A stretch of 64,000 nucleotides of DNA, taken from NCBI GenBank assembly GCA_934756675.1, contig CAKVLG010000005.1, positions 24,543-88,542 of the forward strand, given 5' to 3'. The translations under genes and the position numbers were made by a program. Positions 39,789 to 45,111 of the stretch are shown here, one piece after another. Position 1 is the first letter of the stretch. Each line of letters starts with the position of its first letter. The DNA comes from an uncultured Clostridia bacterium (GTDB lineage Bacteria; Bacillota; Clostridia; Christensenellales; UBA1242). Below the pieces are notes generated by a model that saw nothing but the letters and a program-made list of their open reading frames with translations, did not search any database and was not told the DNA's origin.

Positions 39789-41630
39789 ATGAATAAAATT
39801 ACAGGAAAAGAATTAAGAAATGCTTGGTTGAAGTTTTATGAAGACCGTGGACATTTGAACATTGGGGCTGTTTCGCTTATTGGTGACGGTACAACAGGTG
39901 TTATGTTTAACGTTGCTGGTATGCAACCACTTATGCCATATCTTTTAGGTGCAAAACACCCAAGCGGAAAAACTAGACTTTGCAACGTTCAAGGTTGTGT
40001 TAGGACAAACGATATAGAGTCTGTTGGTGACGAAAGTCACTGTACATTTTTCGAAATGATGGGTAACTGGAGCCTTGGTGATTATTTTAAGGCAGAAAAA
40101 ACTCAATGGACTTTTGATTTTTTAACAAAGGTTTTGGGTTTTGATTCAAACAAAATCTGTGCGTCTGTTTTTGCTGGTGACGAAAATGTCCCACGCGATA
40201 CGGAAACAGCTGAATATTTGCAAAAGGCTGGAATAAAGAAAGAAAACATTTTCTACCTTCCAAAAGAAAATAACTGGTGGGATTTACCTGGAACAGTTGG
40301 AACACCTTGCGGCCCAGATAACGAATGGTTCTATCCACGCCATGACAACCCATGTAGTGACCATTGCGACATTACTTGTGAATGTGGCAGATGGGTAGAA
40401 ATTGGTAACGATGTTTATATGCAATACAAAAAGCTTGAAGACGGAAAAGTTGAAACGCTTAAAAATAAAAACGTTGACACTGGTTTCGGGTTCGAAAGAT
40501 TACTTATGTATATTAATGGTCTAGATGACGTATATCTCACAGACGTGTTTAAACCTGTTATCGATTGTTTGTCACAAGCATGCAAAATAGTGTATGGTGC
40601 AGATGAGAAGCAAACATGTTCTATGCGTATTATTGCAGATCATATGCGTACATCTGTTATGCTCATTGGAGATATAAACGGCATTCTTCCAAGCAACGTT
40701 GGTGCTGGCTATGTTTTAAGAAGAATCATGCGCCGTGCAATTAGACATGCGAAAAAAATTAATGCTAGCAAAGAAACTCTTTTAAATATCGCTAAGATTT
40801 ATATCGAAGAGATTTATAACGAAGCTTATCCACTTTTAAAAGAAAAAGAAGAGTACATTCTTCAAAGTATTGACAATGAAATTGCTAAGTTTAACAAGAC
40901 TATCGAAACCGGGAACAAAGAGTTCGAAAAACTTGCTAGTGGCATAGATAGAAAGATTGAATTTTTAAAGAAAAATAATCCAGAATACAAAGAAACAGAA
41001 CAAGACAAAACAATTAGCGGCAAAGCAGCTTTTAGACTTTATGAAACATATGGTTTCCCAATAGAAATGACGGTAGAAATGGCTGCGGAAAAAGGACTTA
41101 ATGTTGATGAAGAAGACTTTAAAAAAGCCTTCGAAGAACATCAAGAGCTTGCACGTGCAACATCTTCTGTTGCAAAATCGGGGCTTGCAACATCTGGCGA
41201 AATGGAAACAAAATATCACACAGCAACACACTTGCTCAATGCTGCTCTAAAAAGAGTGCTTGGTGAAGATACCCACCAAATGGGGTCTAATATCACAGCA
41301 GAAAGGTTGCGTTTTGACTTTAACTGTGACCACAAAATGACAGACGAAGAGCTAAAGAAAACAGCTGAACTTGTTAATGGTTGGATTGCGGCAGACTTGC
41401 CTGTTACCAAAGAAGAAATGAACAAGATTGATGCGGTTAAAGCTGGCGCTGAACATCAATTTATCGAAAAATATCCAGACATTGTATCTGTTTATACAAT
41501 TGGTGATGCAAGCAAGGAAATTTGCACTGGCCCACACATAAAACACACTGGCGAACTTGGTAAGTTTAAGATTAAAAAAGAAGAAGCTTCTTCTAGTGGT
41601 GTACGTAGAATAAAGGCTATTCTTGAATAA
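39789..41630 (+). CDS. alaS: Compact alanine--tRNA ligase-like protein (613 aa): catalytic and tRNA-recognition domains plus a minimal AlaX-like editing core
   Basis: Catalytic-core motifs FFEMMGNWSLGDYF, GFGFERLLM, IADHMRTSVMLIGD..PSNVGAGYVLRRIMRRA and FRLYETYGFP. Editing-core motifs HTATHLLNAAL and CTGPH. Ends at GVRRIKAILE. Confidence 0.75.
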   Translation: MNKITGKELRNAWLKFYEDRGHLNIGAVSLIGDGTTGVMFNVAGMQPLMPYLLGAKHPSGKTRLCNVQGCVRTNDIESVGDESHCTFFEMMGNWSLGDYFKAEKTQWTFDFLTKVLGFDSNKICASVFAGDENVPRDTETAEYLQKAGIKKENIFYLPKENNWWDLPGTVGTPCGPDNEWFYPRHDNPCSDHCDITCECGRWVEIGNDVYMQYKKLEDGKVETLKNKNVDTGFGFERLLMYINGLDDVYLTDVFKPVIDCLSQACKIVYGADEKQTCSMRIIADHMRTSVMLIGDINGILPSNVGAGYVLRRIMRRAIRHAKKINASKETLLNIAKIYIEEIYNEAYPLLKEKEEYILQSIDNEIAKFNKTIETGNKEFEKLASGIDRKIEFLKKNNPEYKETEQDKTISGKAAFRLYETYGFPIEMTVEMAAEKGLNVDEEDFKKAFEEHQELARATSSVAKSGLATSGEMETKYHTATHLLNAALKRVLGEDTHQMGSNITAERLRFDFNCDHKMTDEELKKTAELVNGWIAADLPVTKEEMNKIDAVKAGAEHQFIEKYPDIVSVYTIGDASKEICTGPHIKHTGELGKFKIKKEEASSSGVRRIKAILE

Positions 41631-41740: not shown

Positions 41741-43279
41741 ATGAAAGGAAGACTTGTTGCCTGGATAATAATTTTATTTATAGGATTGCCACTTTTGTTT
41801 TGTAGTGGGGCAATGCTCATTATGTATCTTGCACCTGGGTTCGAAATTTTTGGTATAAGATATGTCGCTAATGGCACATGTGATTTTTCGGACACAAAAG
41901 CATTCACAATTTCCCGCGGGGATATTATTATTGAGTGTGAAGATGTTCCAGTTATTATTGACTATTCAACAATCACAAACGCGCAAGTTTCTTTCAGAGA
42001 AAAATTTATTGGTTTCACAGCTTCAAAGGCTAAACAACCAAGCTTGAATATTGCAACAGACCAATCTGGGAATGTTAAAATCGTTACAGAAGAAATTACA
42101 AAATTTTTGTTTGAAACAAAATTAGAAAATGCTAAATTCTTAAAAATTAGTTTACCATACACCAGCAGAAATATAACAGTTAAAGCCAAAAATTCGCCAG
42201 TTACATTCGAAGGTAATATTGCTCAAGCTGGCAAGGTAAACATTGCCACCGCTGGCGAAGTTAAAATCAACAACTCAATGACAATCGGTACTCTCACAAT
42301 TAACACAAACTCCAACGTTGAAGTTGGCGAAAACGTTAAACTTTCGAACGCAACAATTACTACAAAAAATAAATACATAAAAATAGCACCAGCTGTTAGT
42401 GGTGACCTTAATTTGACAACAACTAGCGGCAATATCGAAATCAACTCTTGCAACAACTTAAAAGCAACAACATCATCGGGCGTAATTAAAAGTATTAATG
42501 ATAAAAAAATTACAGTTAGTGGCAAAGCTGAACTTTCGAGCAAATCTGGCTCTATTACAATTGGCAAAATCTTAGGTTCAAAAGAAACATCAACAATTAC
42601 AACAAAGTCTGGAACTATCAATATTGATTATGTTAATGACATCAGTATCAATTCTTCAAGGGGGCCAGTAAACATTGGTCAAGCAAAAAATGTTGATATC
42701 GAAGGTGGTTCTGGCACAATAAATATTACATCTGTCGCTGGAAAAGTTGATATAAATGCACGTAACGGTGCTGTTAACCTTGGCAAAGACGGCAGTGGTT
42801 CGGTTAATAACCCAACAGTAACAACAACTACTGGTAGAATAACAGTATATAACACACTTGGCACGGTTAACCTTACAAGTAACAATGCGGCAATTTTTGT
42901 TCGCAATACAAAGGGTGTTGGTGCGTCTGAATTTAAACTCTCTGCCGGGAAAGGTTTGACTTGTGAAAACTTGGAGGGTGCGGTAGAAGCTTATGCAAAT
43001 GGCGAAACAAATATGCATTTCCAAAACATTTCTAAAGATATTAGGGTTTCGGTTGGTACAAAATGCAAAGTTGTAAACATTGATGCTACTTGCAAACTAT
43101 ATGACGAAGTTAACTATGAACTTAAGTCTACAAAAAACAAAGAAGCATCTGTTTATGCGGGCAATTTGTTAATAGCAAAAAAGAATCCAATTGTCAGCAA
43201 AAACTTGGTTGCAGCTCCATTTATTTCGGTAACGGGCGCTTACCAAGTAACAACGCTTTATTTGAAAGCAGAAGACTAA
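41741..43279 (+). CDS. DUF4097-type beta-strand repeat protein (putative adhesin) with an N-terminal TM anchor
   Basis: 512 aa. N-terminal IIILFIGLPLLFCSGAMLIMYL, then repeated ..SG.I.I.. beta units. Confidence 0.6.
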   Translation: MKGRLVAWIIILFIGLPLLFCSGAMLIMYLAPGFEIFGIRYVANGTCDFSDTKAFTISRGDIIIECEDVPVIIDYSTITNAQVSFREKFIGFTASKAKQPSLNIATDQSGNVKIVTEEITKFLFETKLENAKFLKISLPYTSRNITVKAKNSPVTFEGNIAQAGKVNIATAGEVKINNSMTIGTLTINTNSNVEVGENVKLSNATITTKNKYIKIAPAVSGDLNLTTTSGNIEINSCNNLKATTSSGVIKSINDKKITVSGKAELSSKSGSITIGKILGSKETSTITTKSGTINIDYVNDISINSSRGPVNIGQAKNVDIEGGSGTINITSVAGKVDINARNGAVNLGKDGSGSVNNPTVTTTTGRITVYNTLGTVNLTSNNAAIFVRNTKGVGASEFKLSAGKGLTCENLEGAVEAYANGETNMHFQNISKDIRVSVGTKCKVVNIDATCKLYDEVNYELKSTKNKEASVYAGNLLIAKKNPIVSKNLVAAPFISVTGAYQVTTLYLKAED

Positions 43280-43292
43280 AAGAAAAAATAAA

Positions 43293-43315
43293 AGGGGCAA
43301 AGTTGCCTCTTTTTT
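43293..43315 (+). terminator. Intrinsic terminator
   Basis: aggggca-aagt-tgcctct (one G-U pair) followed by T5. Confidence 0.75.
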
Positions 43316-43364
43316 CGTGTGCAAAATTGCTGGCAATAATATGATGTTATTTTTAAAATTGGTA

Positions 43365-43407
43365 TTTACAAATAGTCAGTTTGATGGTAAAATATAGTTA
43401 CAAATAG
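43365..43407 (+). promoter_or_regulatory. Promoter with a duplicated 10-nt motif for the three-gene operon
   Basis: TTTACA (43365-70), 17 nt, TAAAAT (43388-93). TTACAAATAG occurs at 43366-75 and 43398-407. Confidence 0.45.
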
Positions 43408-43486
43408 AATAGTTGGCAAAAACGTTTTACATTTTGGTTTTTTATGTGTTAAACTAACCATGAAAAATTATTTTGGAGAAAACTAA

Positions 43487-43819
43487 ATGGAAAAATATGT
43501 TTACCCAATGGTTTTATTTGCAAGTAGCGAAGGACAAGGCTACACTGTGCTTTTCCCAGACCTTGATATTGTTACAACTGGCGATACGGTTGAAGAAGCA
43601 TATTTAAGAGCGCAAGATTATTTACAATCGTTTTTGGACATGGCAACAAAGTTTGAATCCGCACTAAGTGAAGCATCTACATATGATGAAACAAAAGGGT
43701 TAAATCCAAAACGTATTGTTTTGCTTACAGATGCAAATGCTCAAAACGATAACCTTGTGCTTACAAAAAGAGAAAAAAAATACAAAAACTTTATGAAAAA
43801 TTTTTTGTATGATGATTAG
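43487..43819 (+). CDS. HicB-like (UPF0150) domain protein without a DNA-binding tail
   Basis: 110 aa. MEKYVYPMVLF...GYTVLFPDLDIVTTGDTVEEAYLRAQDYLQSF fits the HicB N-terminal fold pattern. SD ggag. Confidence 0.55.
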   Translation: MEKYVYPMVLFASSEGQGYTVLFPDLDIVTTGDTVEEAYLRAQDYLQSFLDMATKFESALSEASTYDETKGLNPKRIVLLTDANAQNDNLVLTKREKKYKNFMKNFLYDD

Positions 43820-43829
43820 GGGGTAAGTT

Positions 43830-44363
43830 ATGGCAAGACAATTTAAACCTGGCGAAATTGATTATAGCGAAAAGAGAAAAGCTATGGATATAATTACGGC
43901 TGTAAACTCATTATATTTTGCTAATGCTATTAATAGCAAAAGAATGAATGGTAAAACAGAGAAGAGCTTAATATTCGCTTGTAATGATCGTGGTTCAAAC
44001 CTCATGCAAGCAATCTTTATTCCACTTGATCCAGAATTTATTTATGCTTCACCTGAAAATCAAACCATTGCAACGTTAAATGGTTTAAAGTTTCAAAAAA
44101 GTTTAGGTATTGAAGGCGAAGATTATAATCAACCACTTGTCCGCGTGAGAAGTGCACAATATATTAATAGTATAAAAGATGAAAAATTAAAGGAAATAGC
44201 CTTGAGTGTTTGGAAAGACAACTTTGAATATATTAATGAGCTTTCTAGACAATATCCAGATTCAGAGTGCTTGAGATTAGCAGTTGACGCTTTAGAGCAA
44301 ACTGACAATTATAAACAAATTCAAGCATTATATCCGGAATATCAAGCTGTTAACCACAATTAG
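43830..44363 (+). CDS. Hypothetical protein (177 aa), no recognisable family
   Basis: SD aggggg lies 10 nt after the upstream stop codon. Soluble, no TM segment, no motif recognised. Confidence 0.5.
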   Translation: MARQFKPGEIDYSEKRKAMDIITAVNSLYFANAINSKRMNGKTEKSLIFACNDRGSNLMQAIFIPLDPEFIYASPENQTIATLNGLKFQKSLGIEGEDYNQPLVRVRSAQYINSIKDEKLKEIALSVWKDNFEYINELSRQYPDSECLRLAVDALEQTDNYKQIQALYPEYQAVNHN

Positions 44364-44370
44364 GGAAATT

Positions 44371-44907
44371 ATGTCAGCAAATTTGCAAAATATAGCAACA
44401 CTAGTTGGATATGAAGTTGTCAATGTTGATGACGGGTTCACCAACTATGAATATCATCAAAAACTCGCAAGTTTCGAAAGTTTGTCTTATTTGATTACAA
44501 TCAAAGACGAGCTTTCTTTTGATGAGATGAAAATTACCCTTTATGCAATTATCGATGTTTTGCCAAAGGATTTAAAGAAAAAGATATATAAGCTCACAAA
44601 GAAGTTCGATAAAAACAATAAGCAAAATATTCTCGACCTTGTGTATTATACAATCGAAGAGTATAAGATGAAAACACCATACCAAAAACTTTATGAATAT
44701 GGGCAACTTGTGGGTGTTGATCTCGAAAAACACAATTATTGTTTTGATTACAATTTGTCGAAGAAAGAGCAAAAGCAAATTTTGGCATTAATCGAAAGTT
44801 CTTTGCCACTTGAACTTGCGCCAGTGCTTGGCAAAATCAAGAAAATTGACTACAAAATTGGGTTTATGAAAAATCGTAACAGATTTCTTGAAAAAGACAA
44901 TGGTTAA
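44371..44907 (+). CDS. Hypothetical protein (178 aa), no recognisable family
   Basis: SD taggga lies 7 nt after the upstream stop codon. Soluble, Lys/Tyr-rich, no motif recognised. Confidence 0.5.
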   Translation: MSANLQNIATLVGYEVVNVDDGFTNYEYHQKLASFESLSYLITIKDELSFDEMKITLYAIIDVLPKDLKKKIYKLTKKFDKNNKQNILDLVYYTIEEYKMKTPYQKLYEYGQLVGVDLEKHNYCFDYNLSKKEQKQILALIESSLPLELAPVLGKIKKIDYKIGFMKNRNRFLEKDNG

Positions 44908-44942: not shown

Positions 44943-44971
44943 TTGACTTAAAGTTCGAATAATGTTAGAAT
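44943..44971 (+). promoter_or_regulatory. rpsL (str operon) promoter
   Basis: TTGACT (44943-48), 17 nt, TAGAAT (44966-71). The predicted TSS at ~44978 gives a ~134-nt leader. Confidence 0.55.
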
Positions 44972-44973
44972 AG

Positions 44974-45008
44974 GCAAGCATGGATTATCATGTTTGCTTT
45001 TTATTTTG
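44974..45008 (+). terminator. Terminator of the upstream three-gene operon, overlapping the rpsL promoter/TSS
   Basis: 9-bp stem gcaagcatg/catgtttgc (44974-82 / 44989-97) followed by TTTTTATTTT. Confidence 0.65.
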
Positions 45009-45111
45009 TTAATTTTTAAAAGTGTGTACAAAAGATTGCAAAAGCGGGAGCAAGAATTTCCTCGAAATGGGGCAGTAGAGGAGTTCACCAAAACTTTTAG
45101 GAGGTAGAACT

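What the first reader, a model, noticed from the sequence alone, without database searches (positions are those of the whole stretch)
43365..44907. Terminator-insulated three-gene operon: orphan HicB-like protein plus two unplaceable proteins, with an operator-like repeat
Three ORFs at 43487-43819 (110 aa), 43830-44363 (177 aa) and 44371-44907 (178 aa) are spaced by only 10 and 7 nt. Each has its own SD. Strong terminators lie upstream (43293-43315) and downstream (44974-45008), so this is an autonomous unit wedged between a DUF4097 gene and the rpsL operon. The first product shows the HicB/UPF0150 N-terminal pattern. It has no RHH/HTH tail, and no HicA-sized ORF is adjacent on either strand. 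I cannot assign the other two proteins to any family. The promoter (TTTACA-17-TAAAAT) is bracketed by an exact 10-nt direct repeat, TTACAAATAG, at 43366-75 and 43398-407 (32 nt apart). One copy sits on the -35 and the other just past the -10. That layout is typical of autoregulated toxin-antitoxin or defence modules. This is my best candidate for an undescribed system in the window.
Basis: partly seen in the sequence, partly recalled or inferred. Interest (0 to 1): 0.6.

Follow-up and report, generated by a model that had tools for sequence, protein, structure and literature searches.

The report
Clade-specific HicB-like three-gene operon
This is a real three-gene operon, inherited vertically in one group of uncultured gut Clostridia, that encodes a HicB-like protein with no DNA-binding domain and two proteins with no detectable relatives; it behaves like a core gene set, not a mobile toxin-antitoxin or defence module, and its function is unknown.

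Summary
The ORFs, their 10- and 7-nt gaps, the upstream terminator, the promoter and the exact 10-nt repeat are all present. A (110 aa) carries a HicB N-terminal domain and no DNA-binding domain. B and C match nothing in Pfam, PHROGs, NCBIfam or PADLOC. C's confident model (pLDDT 93) has no Foldseek match in PDB or BFVD.

Comparative data change the interpretation:
- A lies upstream of C in 32 of 32 testable loci, one locus per genome in 20 species of uncultured gut/rumen Clostridia.
- Neighbours are always housekeeping genes, in three different arrangements.
- A and C identities track alaS. C was not found on viral contigs, plasmids or phages.
- All three genes are under purifying selection, but B diverges 3-6 times faster than A and C.

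Two tandem near-consensus promoters and a strongly conserved leader drive the operon. The direct repeat is not above chance and is absent from sister species. The "downstream terminator" belongs to a conserved rpsL leader.

Best reading: a chromosomally fixed module built around a HicB-fold protein, resembling DBD-less hicBA pairs, in which acidic A binds basic C. There is no HicA and no evidence of toxicity. Interest is moderate.

The parts
43292..43315 (+). Intrinsic terminator of the upstream DUF4097 gene (8-bp stem AAGGGGCA/TGCCTCTT, loop AAGT, T-run). It insulates the operon on its 5' side.
   Evidence: RNAfold -10.1 kcal/mol followed by a T-run. An equivalent terminator sits upstream of gene A in most related loci.
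43365..43393 (+). Promoter P1: TTTACA, 17 nt, TG-extended TAAAAT, preceded by an A/T-rich TTTTTAAAA tract.
   Evidence: 10 of 12 matches, TG present. The same architecture is matched 117-172 nt before the ATG in 14 of the 21 loci scanned, and similar near-matches are visible by eye in most of the others. The element is invariant in the four-species alignment.
43363..43375 (+).
   Evidence: It is conserved because it is the -35 element and its flank.
43395..43407 (+). Copy 2 of the direct repeat (TAGTTACAAATAG), at about +1 to +13 of P1. It is specific to this species.
   Evidence: Sister species have TTTGTAAGTAAAT at this position. The chance of such a repeat is 13-25%.
43426..43455 (+). Promoter P2: TTTACA, 18 nt, TG-extended TAAACT, about 61 nt before the ATG of gene A.
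   Evidence: A P2-type promoter (17-18-nt spacer, TGn extension) starts 56-65 nt before the ATG in 17 of the 21 loci scanned by the regex; the window's own copy, found, fell outside that pattern. Conserved.
43475..43478 (+). Shine-Dalgarno sequence (GGAG) of gene A.
   Evidence: Sequence. Invariant in alignment A6.
43487..43819 (+). Gene A: 110-aa acidic (pI 4.6) HicB-like protein. It has a HicB N-terminal domain (about residues 3-80) and a conserved C-terminal tail (LTxxExxYKNFxxxF plus an acidic end). It has no DNA-binding domain.
   Evidence: PF15919 E 4e-5, and 20 of 21 orthologues hit it. PHROG 497 E 1.6e-11. PDB profile hits are HicB chains 5yrz, 6u0i, 6hpb and 6g1c over residues 3-65. 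dN/dS is 0.04-0.12.
43830..44363 (+). Gene B: 177-aa protein with no family. It evolves fast between species and is constrained within the species. A weakly conserved N-terminal LAxLxG...V.IP motif is followed by a variable helical part.
   Evidence: No Pfam, PHROG, NCBIfam or PADLOC hit. Only one near-identical cluster was found among 5.8 billion sequences. A positional orthologue is present in every locus. Within the species there are 7 synonymous and 0 nonsynonymous differences; between species dN is 0.36-0.81. The AF2 model is poor, pLDDT 50.
44371..44907 (+). Gene C: 178-aa basic (family median pI 8.7) conserved protein. It has an N-terminal alpha-beta-beta-beta-alpha domain (residues 5-61) and a helical domain (66-177), with an invariant C-terminal GKIKKIDYKIG motif.
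   Evidence: The family has 31 members in the word-indexed search. Only 41 hits, 9 with E below 1e-30, appear among 1.84 billion representatives. AF2 pLDDT is 93. There is no Foldseek match in PDB or BFVD. dN/dS is at most 0.09.
44943..44971 (+). rpsL (str operon) promoter, TTGACT-17-TG-extended TAGAAT. It starts only 35 nt after the stop codon of C.
   Evidence: Conserved upstream of rpsL in all related genomes.
44972..45008 (+). It is the first element of the conserved rpsL leader and is the only terminator-like signal after gene C in this genus.
   Evidence: -13.6 kcal/mol. Conserved with compensatory changes, also in loci where the trio is not adjacent to rpsL.

Best explanation
The locus is a genuine three-gene operon (A, B, C). 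It is a vertically inherited, single-copy, clade-specific core gene set of an uncultured gut/rumen Clostridia lineage, not a mobile TA or defence cassette.

Shown:
- All three genes are under purifying selection.
- The gene order A, variable middle ORF(s), C is kept in every testable locus, in three different housekeeping neighbourhoods.
- The operon has two conserved tandem sigma-70-type promoters with TG-extended -10 boxes, and a leader far more conserved than synonymous sites.

Inferred: the three soluble proteins work as a complex built on the HicB fold. Acidic protein A lacks a DNA-binding domain. It would use the beta-sheet face of its HicB-like domain, as HicB does with HicA, to bind and hold in check or chaperone the basic, conserved protein C. 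C has an alpha-beta-beta-beta-alpha N-domain plus a helical domain. The fast-evolving B would act as an adaptor or modulator.

In other words, the module works like a DBD-less (class 2) hicBA pair that has become fixed in the chromosome, with a partner that is not a HicA RNase. High constitutive transcription from P1 and P2 is inferred. No product is predicted to bind DNA.
For: Real genes:
- Within the species, synonymous/nonsynonymous differences are 3-4/1 for A, 7/0 for B and about 14/3.5 for C.
- Between species, dN/dS is at most 0.12 for A and C and 0.2-0.6 for B.

Co-occurrence and vertical descent:
- A is upstream of C in 32 of 32 loci.
- The genome scan gave 20 loci in 20 species genomes, one per genome.
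- Pairwise identities of A and C track alaS, Spearman 0.87 and 0.75.
- Three contexts were seen: alaS-DUF4097 | trio | rpsL; rpoC | trio | rpsL; folD | trio | serS/dnaB or other genes.
- C is absent from IMG/VR, PLSDB and the phage records.

HicB fold of A.

Charge complementarity and solubility: A has pI 4.1-4.7 and C has median pI 8.7. No protein has a transmembrane segment.

Fold of C: the confident model has alpha-beta-beta-beta-alpha order followed by helices. That is the same element order as the HicA dsRBD described in PMC10865869.

Precedents: DBD-less HicBs, and HicAs with extra C-terminal helices, are described in PMC10865869.

Promoters and leader.
Against: - No interaction between the proteins was tested; structure jobs were exhausted and are monomer-only.
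- C and B show no sequence or profile similarity to HicA. The Pfam scan of 31 C and 21 B members at E<=10 gave no HicA family. hhalign against five PDB HicA sequences gave probability of 1.2% or less.
- No HicA chain appears among the 50 Foldseek PDB matches shown (402 had E<=10), and no histidine is invariant in C.
- The window's own A scores below Pfam's gathering threshold.
- Tight linkage and an acidic/basic pair are also compatible with many unrelated complexes.
- The function of the module remains unknown.
Confidence: 0.45

Rival explanations
1. It is a functional, chromosomally fixed tripartite toxin-antitoxin or abortive-infection system. C would be a toxin with a new fold, A the HicB-like antitoxin, and B a rapidly evolving specificity or sensor component. 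The promoter-region repeat might provide autoregulation.
For: - A is HicB-like and precedes its putative partners, as in hicBA class 2, which also lacks a DNA-binding domain.
- The genes are tightly packed.
- A is acidic and C is basic.
- B evolves 3-6 times faster than A and C, as in arms-race components.
- C is an orphan family.
Against: - Inheritance is vertical, single-copy and syntenic, among housekeeping genes in three contexts.
- There is no PADLOC hit.
- C was not found on viral contigs, plasmids or phages.
- No mobile-element or defence gene was seen among the neighbours that were annotated.
- A evolves as slowly as C, which is unusual for antitoxins.
- None of the three proteins matched a DNA-binding family, and the repeat is not conserved.
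- Two strong constitutive-type promoters are conserved.
- C shows no nuclease, toxin motif or fold match.
Confidence: 0.2
2. The trio encodes lineage-specific housekeeping factors for RNA, the ribosome or the transcription-translation machinery. The HicB-like (partial RNase H-like) fold of A and the alpha-beta-beta-beta-alpha domain of C would bind RNA or a ribosomal component, not each other.
For: - The trio always lies next to translation or transcription genes: alaS, rpsL-rpsG-fusA-tuf, rpoC, rplQ, serS.
- It has strong tandem promoters like those of highly expressed genes.
- C is basic.
- It behaves as a core gene set.
Against: - It has its own promoters and terminators, so it is not co-transcribed with its neighbours.
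- The neighbours differ between sub-clades.
- No RNA-binding or ribosomal family is detected by sequence or fold.
- Core regions of small genomes are dense in such genes anyway.
Confidence: 0.25
3. One reading: a product of the operon binds the two TTACAAATAG copies bracketing P1 and autoregulates transcription.
For: - The 13-nt copies (12/13 identical) are 32 nt apart, about three helical turns, over the -35 and the start region.
- The -35 flank TATTTACAAATA is quasi-palindromic, and sister species carry a related inverted-looking TTTGTAAGTA at the second site.
Against: - A direct repeat of at least 10 nt arises by chance in 13-25% of simulations.
- The motif is not enriched in the window.
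- The direct copy exists only in this species; 5 of 13 positions differ in sister species although the flanks are about 80% conserved.
- No product has a recognisable DNA-binding domain.
- Copy 1 is conserved simply because it is the -35 box.
Confidence: 0.1

Closest known systems
Class 2 hicBA modules (Gerdes 2024, mBio, PMC10865869): small HicB without a DNA-binding domain, encoded upstream of hicA
   Same: - The first gene encodes a HicB N-terminal-domain protein with no RHH, HTH or Phd domain.
- The genes are tightly linked and on the same strand.
- How expression is regulated is unknown in both cases.
- The next protein, at low model confidence, and the third, at high confidence, start with alpha-beta-beta-beta-alpha element order, like the HicA dsRBD.
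   Different: - No HicA is present. There is no Pfam HicA hit, hhalign probability is 1.2% or less, there is no conserved catalytic His, and no HicA chain is among the Foldseek matches shown.
- There are three genes instead of two.
- The partners are about 177 aa with long helical extensions.
- The module is vertically inherited in housekeeping context, not in defence islands.
- A is 110 aa with a conserved extra tail, against 60-90 aa for class 2 HicB.
Class 6 and class 8 HicA toxins with C-terminal helical extensions (PMC10865869)
   Same: An N-terminal alpha-beta-beta-beta-alpha domain is followed by additional alpha-helices. The partner of a HicB-fold protein is larger than a minimal HicA.
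   Different: - Those proteins are recognisable HicA by sequence, and their extensions are 2-3 helices (about 30-60 aa).
- C has about 115 aa with seven helical segments (five of at least 10 residues) and no detectable HicA signature.
- The class 6 'Shared Domain' was not tested for directly.
Tripartite type II TA systems (for example toxin-antitoxin-chaperone TAC, PMC5105189; paaR-paaA-parE)
   Same: A three-gene operon with a small acidic antitoxin-like protein and a third accessory protein.
   Different: - There is no SecB-like chaperone, no regulator with a DNA-binding domain and no known toxin family.
- The distribution is vertical, not patchy.
Stand-alone HicB-like / UPF0150 domain proteins annotated in phages (PHROG 497)
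   Same: This is the best family-level match of A (E 1.6e-11). The N-terminal 50 residues are 40-44% identical to HicB of Clostridium and Mannheimia phages.
   Different: A's orthologue group is chromosomal and clade-restricted. It has a conserved C-terminal tail and two fixed partner genes.

Membership tests
HicB antitoxin family (protein A) | Sequence match to the HicB N-terminal (partial RNase H-like) domain | tested here: met
   PF15919 is hit by 20 of 21 orthologues, best E 2.4e-8. The window copy scores E 4.4e-5 at 24.1 bits, below the 27-bit gathering score. PHROG 497 'HicB-like' gives E 1.6e-11. The PDB profile hits are HicB chains 5yrz, 6u0i, 6hpb and 6g1c over residues 3-65, with weak E of 0.05-0.3.
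HicB antitoxin family (protein A) | An adjacent hicA gene encoding a ~55-95-aa dsRBD-fold RNase | tested here: not met
   There is no HicA-sized ORF on either strand next to A. B and C give no HicA Pfam hit across 21 and 31 family members at E<=10.
HicB antitoxin family (protein A) | A C- or N-terminal DNA-binding domain (RHH, HTH or Phd/YefM). This is absent in classes 1, 2, 7 and 8 of PMC10865869, so it is not strictly defining. | tested here: not met
   No DNA-binding family appears in Pfam for any of the 21 orthologues. The tail LTxxExxYKNFxxxF is about 25 aa.
HicA toxin family (proteins B and C) | Sequence or profile similarity to HicA (Pfam HicA_toxin) | tested here: not met
   Pfam scans gave nothing. 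hhalign of five PDB HicA sequences gave probability 0.3% against the C N-domain, 1.2% against short-B and 0.2% against long-B.
HicA toxin family (proteins B and C) | [quoted passage not shown] | tested here: inconclusive
HicA toxin family (proteins B and C) | Conserved catalytic histidine (the Gly-Ser-His region of solved HicAs; 4c26 is the H24A mutant) | tested here: not met
   There is no invariant or nearly invariant His in the C family and none in B. The position aligned by hhalign reads VDDGF in C.
Type II toxin-antitoxin module (generic) | Patchy, horizontally mobile distribution, often multi-copy or in mobile or defence regions | tested here: not met
   There is one locus per genome in 20 species. 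Synteny and co-divergence with alaS are seen. The annotated neighbours are housekeeping genes. C was not found in viral, plasmid or phage collections.
Type II toxin-antitoxin module (generic) | Toxicity of one product neutralised by another | not testable with these tools
   This needs expression experiments.
Type II toxin-antitoxin module (generic) | Autoregulation through a conserved operator in the promoter | tested here: inconclusive
   The direct repeat is species-specific and not above chance. The leader as a whole is strongly conserved, but this is explained at least in part by two promoters. No DNA-binding domain was found.
Known anti-phage defence systems (PADLOC-DB v2) | Match of any component to a defence-system model | tested here: not met
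   There are no hits for A, B or C at E<=1.

The most novel reading that the evidence does not exclude
C would be the effector of a previously undescribed kind of module: a new protein fold held by a DBD-less HicB-like partner. This would be a hicBA-type cassette whose toxin was replaced or remodelled and which was then domesticated as an essential, highly expressed core function, for example control of RNA or translation. It would be restricted to one uncultured Clostridia lineage, with B co-evolving rapidly as a specificity subunit.
Probability: 0.15. Interest if true: 0.7.

Novelty: new variant of a known kind. Interest (0 to 1): 0.42.

Why it matters
If the inferred mechanism holds, this would be an example of a HicB-fold 'antitoxin' that has lost both HicA and its DNA-binding domain. 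It would have been retained for a very long time as a core, strongly expressed gene together with two proteins of unknown fold. That bears on how TA components are domesticated.

It also defines two orphan protein families, one with a confident but unmatched structure model. They occur in a group of abundant but uncultured gut and rumen Clostridia.

For the scan itself, the result shows that 'HicB-like plus unknowns plus promoter repeat' is not sufficient to call a defence module. Synteny and co-divergence data reverse that reading here.

Tried and rejected
1. Family assignment of B and C. Pfam, PHROGs, NCBIfam and PADLOC were searched with single sequences and with all family members at lax thresholds. 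Only scattered noise came back.

2. Remote homology of C. The profile search against 1.84 billion representatives found only the same clade, fragments, assembly chimeras and low-complexity giants. The profile search against PDB sequences found only designed armadillo repeats.

4. Structure of B. The alignment was shallow and pLDDT was 50, so the model was not used for fold search.

5. B/C paralogy.
- hhalign probability was 4% or less.
- hmmsearch scores of the C profile on B sequences equal those on shuffled controls.
- The idea was rejected as unsupported; only the order of secondary-structure elements is shared.

6. HicA-likeness of B and C by profile comparison against five solved HicA sequences was unsupported.

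7. The operator hypothesis for the 10-nt repeat was rejected. The repeat is at chance level and not conserved.

8. A small RNA or known RNA family in the leader or intergenic regions: no Rfam match with E below 0.02 and none near gathering score.

9. A hairpin between P1 and P2. It is present with differing sequence in several distant loci but absent from the window's genus, so it is not a general feature.

10. C as a free-standing AlaRS C-Ala domain, considered because alaS here is short. I rejected this: no AlaRS chain is among the Foldseek matches shown.

11. The metagenome scan added only 6 loci, all with the same arrangement.
Full report
**What is in the sequence**

The gaps are 10 and 7 nt, and each ATG is preceded by a purine-rich Shine-Dalgarno motif. 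Upstream lies a 512-aa membrane-anchored DUF4097 'toastrack' protein. Its gene ends in a hairpin plus T-run at 43292-43315 (-10.1 kcal/mol). Downstream lie rpsL, rpsG, fusA and tuf.

The promoter TTTACA-17-TAAAAT (43365-43393) carries a TG extension. The 10-nt repeat TTACAAATAG occurs exactly twice in this spacer and extends to 13 nt at 12/13 identity, 32 nt apart.

**Identity of the three proteins**

A is a HicB N-terminal-domain protein:
- Pfam PF15919 gives E 4.4e-5, slightly below the gathering score.
- PHROG 497 'HicB-like' gives E 1.6e-11.
- In an alignment of 21 orthologues, 20 hit PF15919.
- A profile of that alignment finds only HicB chains (5yrz, 6u0i, 6hpb, 6g1c) as coherent PDB matches, always over residues 3-65.
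- No DNA-binding family is detected. After the domain comes a conserved short tail, LTxxExxYKNFxxxF, with an acidic end.

B and C match nothing in Pfam, PHROGs, NCBIfam or PADLOC. This holds for the single sequences and for all family members at lax thresholds.

C has 31 relatives at 47-98% identity in the 5.8-billion-sequence collection. An exhaustive profile search of 1.84 billion cluster representatives returned 41 hits. Only nine have E below 1e-30. The rest are fragments, assembly chimeras or low-complexity giants. The family is therefore confined to one clade.

B has only one near-identical relative by word-indexed search. Its AF2 model is unreliable (pLDDT 50).

**Comparative genomics**

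Contigs encoding C homologues came from several sources: a scan of one genome for each of 185,579 species (20 loci in 20 genomes) and a metagenome scan (6 loci). All named genomes are uncultured 'Clostridia bacterium' MAGs from human, ruminant, rabbit and other guts.

In every locus with at least 1.1 kb upstream of C (32 of 32), an A orthologue lies 394-892 nt upstream on the same strand. The interval is always filled by one ORF of 121-226 aa. In the most divergent sub-clade it holds two ORFs, of about 100 aa and 53-76 aa.

These middle proteins are positional orthologues of B but are barely alignable. Mean column identity is 16%, and only an N-terminal LAxLxG...V.IP pattern is shared. Short-B against long-B gives hhalign probability 47%, E 2e-4.

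The flanks fall into three arrangements:
- (glnS)-alaS-DUF4097 | trio | rpsL operon, in most loci;
- rpoC | trio | rpsL, in L016;
- (rplQ...)folD | A-B-B'-C | serS/dnaB/alaS or DUF6273, in L020, L025 and L026.

The annotated neighbours were housekeeping genes; none of those examined was a mobile-element or defence gene. C was not found on IMG/VR viral contigs, PLSDB plasmids or GenBank phages. Pairwise identities of A and C between ten genomes track those of alaS (Spearman 0.87 and 0.75). The trio is therefore vertically inherited, single-copy and functionally linked, independently of its neighbours.

**Selection**

Against two conspecific contigs the differences are almost all synonymous: A 3-4 synonymous and 1 nonsynonymous, B 7 and 0, C about 14 and 3.5.

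Against three sister species, synonymous sites are saturated (pS 0.6-0.8). dN is 0.09-0.17 for A, 0.10-0.20 for C, 0.36-0.81 for B, 0.29-0.44 for DUF4097 and about 0.01-0.02 for rpsL. All three are real genes. A and C are well constrained. B is constrained within the species but diverges 3-6 times faster between species.

**Regulatory region**

Two promoters, not one, precede gene A.
- P1 (43365-43393) has an upstream A/T tract. The regex scan matched it in 14 of the 21 loci scanned, and near-matches are visible by eye in most of the others.
- P2 (43426-43455) starts about 61 nt before the ATG. The regex matched a P2-type promoter in 17 of the 21 loci; the window's own copy was found but fell outside that pattern.
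- Both have 17-18-nt spacers and TGn-extended -10 boxes.

Among four species whose synonymous sites are saturated, the ~125 nt from P1 to the Shine-Dalgarno sequence remain about 80% identical. This fits a strongly and probably constitutively transcribed operon.

- Copy 1 is simply the -35 box and its flank.
- Copy 2 reads TTTGTAAGTAAAT in the three sister species and TTTGTAAGT in many other loci.
- A direct repeat of at least 10 nt appears in 13-25% of simulated spacers of this composition.
- The motif is not enriched in the window.

The -35 flank TATTTACAAATA is quasi-palindromic, so the sister-species sequence can be read as an inverted copy. I regard this as unresolved, not as evidence for an operator. 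None of the three proteins has a recognisable DNA-binding domain.

**The 3' boundary**

The hairpin plus T-run at 44972-45008 is real. However, it starts right after the -10 box of a near-consensus promoter (44943-44971). It is the first block of a ~150-nt leader found upstream of rpsL in all related genomes, including seven in which the trio is not adjacent to rpsL.

In distant species the trio has its own terminator immediately after C. In the window's genus only 35 nt separate the stop codon of C from the rpsL -35 box. Transcripts of the trio must therefore either stop at the leader hairpin or read into rpsL. The unit is insulated, but the downstream signal is shared with, and primarily belongs to, the str operon.

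**Is there a hidden HicA?**

The N-domain of C, and B at low confidence, have the alpha-beta-beta-beta-alpha order of the HicA dsRBD. Gerdes (mBio 2024, PMC10865869) describes hicBA classes with DBD-less HicB (class 2) and HicAs with extra C-terminal helices (classes 6 and 8). I tested the idea in five ways:
- Pfam scans of all 31 C and 21 B sequences at E<=10 list no HicA family.
- hhalign of five solved HicA sequences against the C N-domain, short-B and long-B gives probabilities of 0.3%, 1.2% and 0.2%.
- No histidine is conserved in C or B.
- No HicA chain is among the 50 Foldseek PDB matches shown.
- B and C are not detectably related to each other; hmmsearch scores equal shuffled controls and hhalign probability is 4% or less.

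Membership in HicA is therefore not met. The resemblance is limited to the order of secondary-structure elements.

**Interpretation**

The evidence supports a clade-specific core operon and argues against a mobile TA or defence cassette. The mechanism I consider most likely, which is inference and not a demonstration, is a protein complex organised by the HicB fold.
- Acidic A (pI 4.1-4.7) would bind basic C (median pI 8.7) through the surface that HicB uses for HicA.
- B would be a rapidly diverging adaptor.

All three proteins are soluble. In this sense the trio works like a DBD-less hicBA pair that has been fixed in the chromosome with a non-HicA partner.

The rivals are:
- a true tripartite TA or Abi system with a novel toxin; vertical inheritance, housekeeping context, slow evolution of A and strong constitutive promoters argue against it;
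- lineage-specific RNA-, ribosome- or RNA polymerase-associated factors, suggested only by the neighbourhood and the promoters;

**Novelty and score**

A is a new member of the HicB-like superfamily. B and C are undescribed, clade-restricted families, and C has a confident model without a detectable structural neighbour. As a system, the trio is closest to class 2 hicBA but fails the defining HicA test. I rate it a new variant of a known kind. There is a modest probability (about 0.15) that it is something categorically different: a domesticated HicB-centred module with a new effector fold.

Interest is moderate (0.42). The unit is real, conserved and unexplained. However, there is no evidence for the defence or TA function that motivated the finding, and no mechanism can yet be tested in silico.

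Noticed in passing
window 44943-45111 (also L008 8820-9047, L011, L015, L017, L018, L022, L023 upstream of rpsL): A conserved ~150-nt rpsL (str operon) leader. It has these blocks:
- a near-consensus promoter;
- immediately after it, a hairpin plus T-run with compensatory changes between species;
- a GTGGTGTG block;
- an invariant AAGAATTTCCTC box that RNAalifold pairs with the Shine-Dalgarno AGGAGGT (7 pairs, invariant);
- a proposed alternative helix between the 3' arm of the hairpin and the sequence preceding AAGAATTT, in which 5 of 8 pairs show double changes.

There is no Rfam hit with E below 1. It is a candidate undescribed ribosomal-protein leader or attenuator.
   Followed up: partly
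window 39789-41630 (and alaS in L001, L002, L008, L011-L013, L017, L023, L024): The alanyl-tRNA synthetase is only 612-613 aa in this whole clade. It ends right after the editing/tRNA_SAD domain (...SSGVRRIKAILE). From my own knowledge of AlaRS, it therefore lacks the coiled-coil and C-Ala domains of typical ~870-aa bacterial AlaRS.
   Followed up: no
L002 4640-4715, L004 1150-1225, L008, L010, L011, L012, L014, L015, L024 (between P1 and P2 upstream of gene A): In several distant loci the P1-P2 spacer is 33-80 nt, longer than the 31-32 nt of the window's genus. It contains an inverted repeat or hairpin near the predicted 5' end of the P1 transcript. Its sequence differs between species: CGAACAA/TTGTTCG, ATAAGCAA/TTGCTTAT, TGTAAGT/ACTTACA, ACAAATTAAG/CTTAATTTGT. 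The z-score reaches -5.4. It is absent from the window's genus.
   Followed up: partly
L020 4421-4985, L025 4479-4985, L026 4432-4985: In the most divergent sub-clade the interval between A and C holds two small ORFs instead of one B gene. One is about 100 aa (family P0034-P0046, well conserved within itself) and the other is 53-76 aa. Either B is split there or it has been replaced by two genes.
   Followed up: partly
window 41741-43279: The upstream 512-aa DUF4097 'toastrack' protein has an N-terminal hydrophobic segment. It is syntenic with the trio in most loci but evolves fast (dN 0.29-0.44; 27-55% identity) and is absent from the rpoC and folD contexts. It has its own terminator, so it is probably not part of the unit.
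   Followed up: partly
proteins P0055, P0061, P0065, P0066, P0072, P0078, P0080 (representative library): Apparent 'fusions' of C fragments to unrelated sequences (to my eye, Clp-ATPase-like, ABC-ATPase-like, collagen-like and membrane segments; none was scanned against a family library). They look like assembly chimeras or frameshifts from short-read contigs, not true domain fusions, and should not be used for Rosetta-stone inference.
   Followed up: no
L025 6133-9327: Downstream of the trio in L025 lie a 661-aa DUF6273 protein and a 342-aa protein with a weak bAvd-like C-terminus (27.8 bits, below the 40-bit cut-off). bAvd is, to my knowledge, an accessory protein of diversity-generating retroelements, so this may be such an element. 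It is unrelated to the trio.
   Followed up: no
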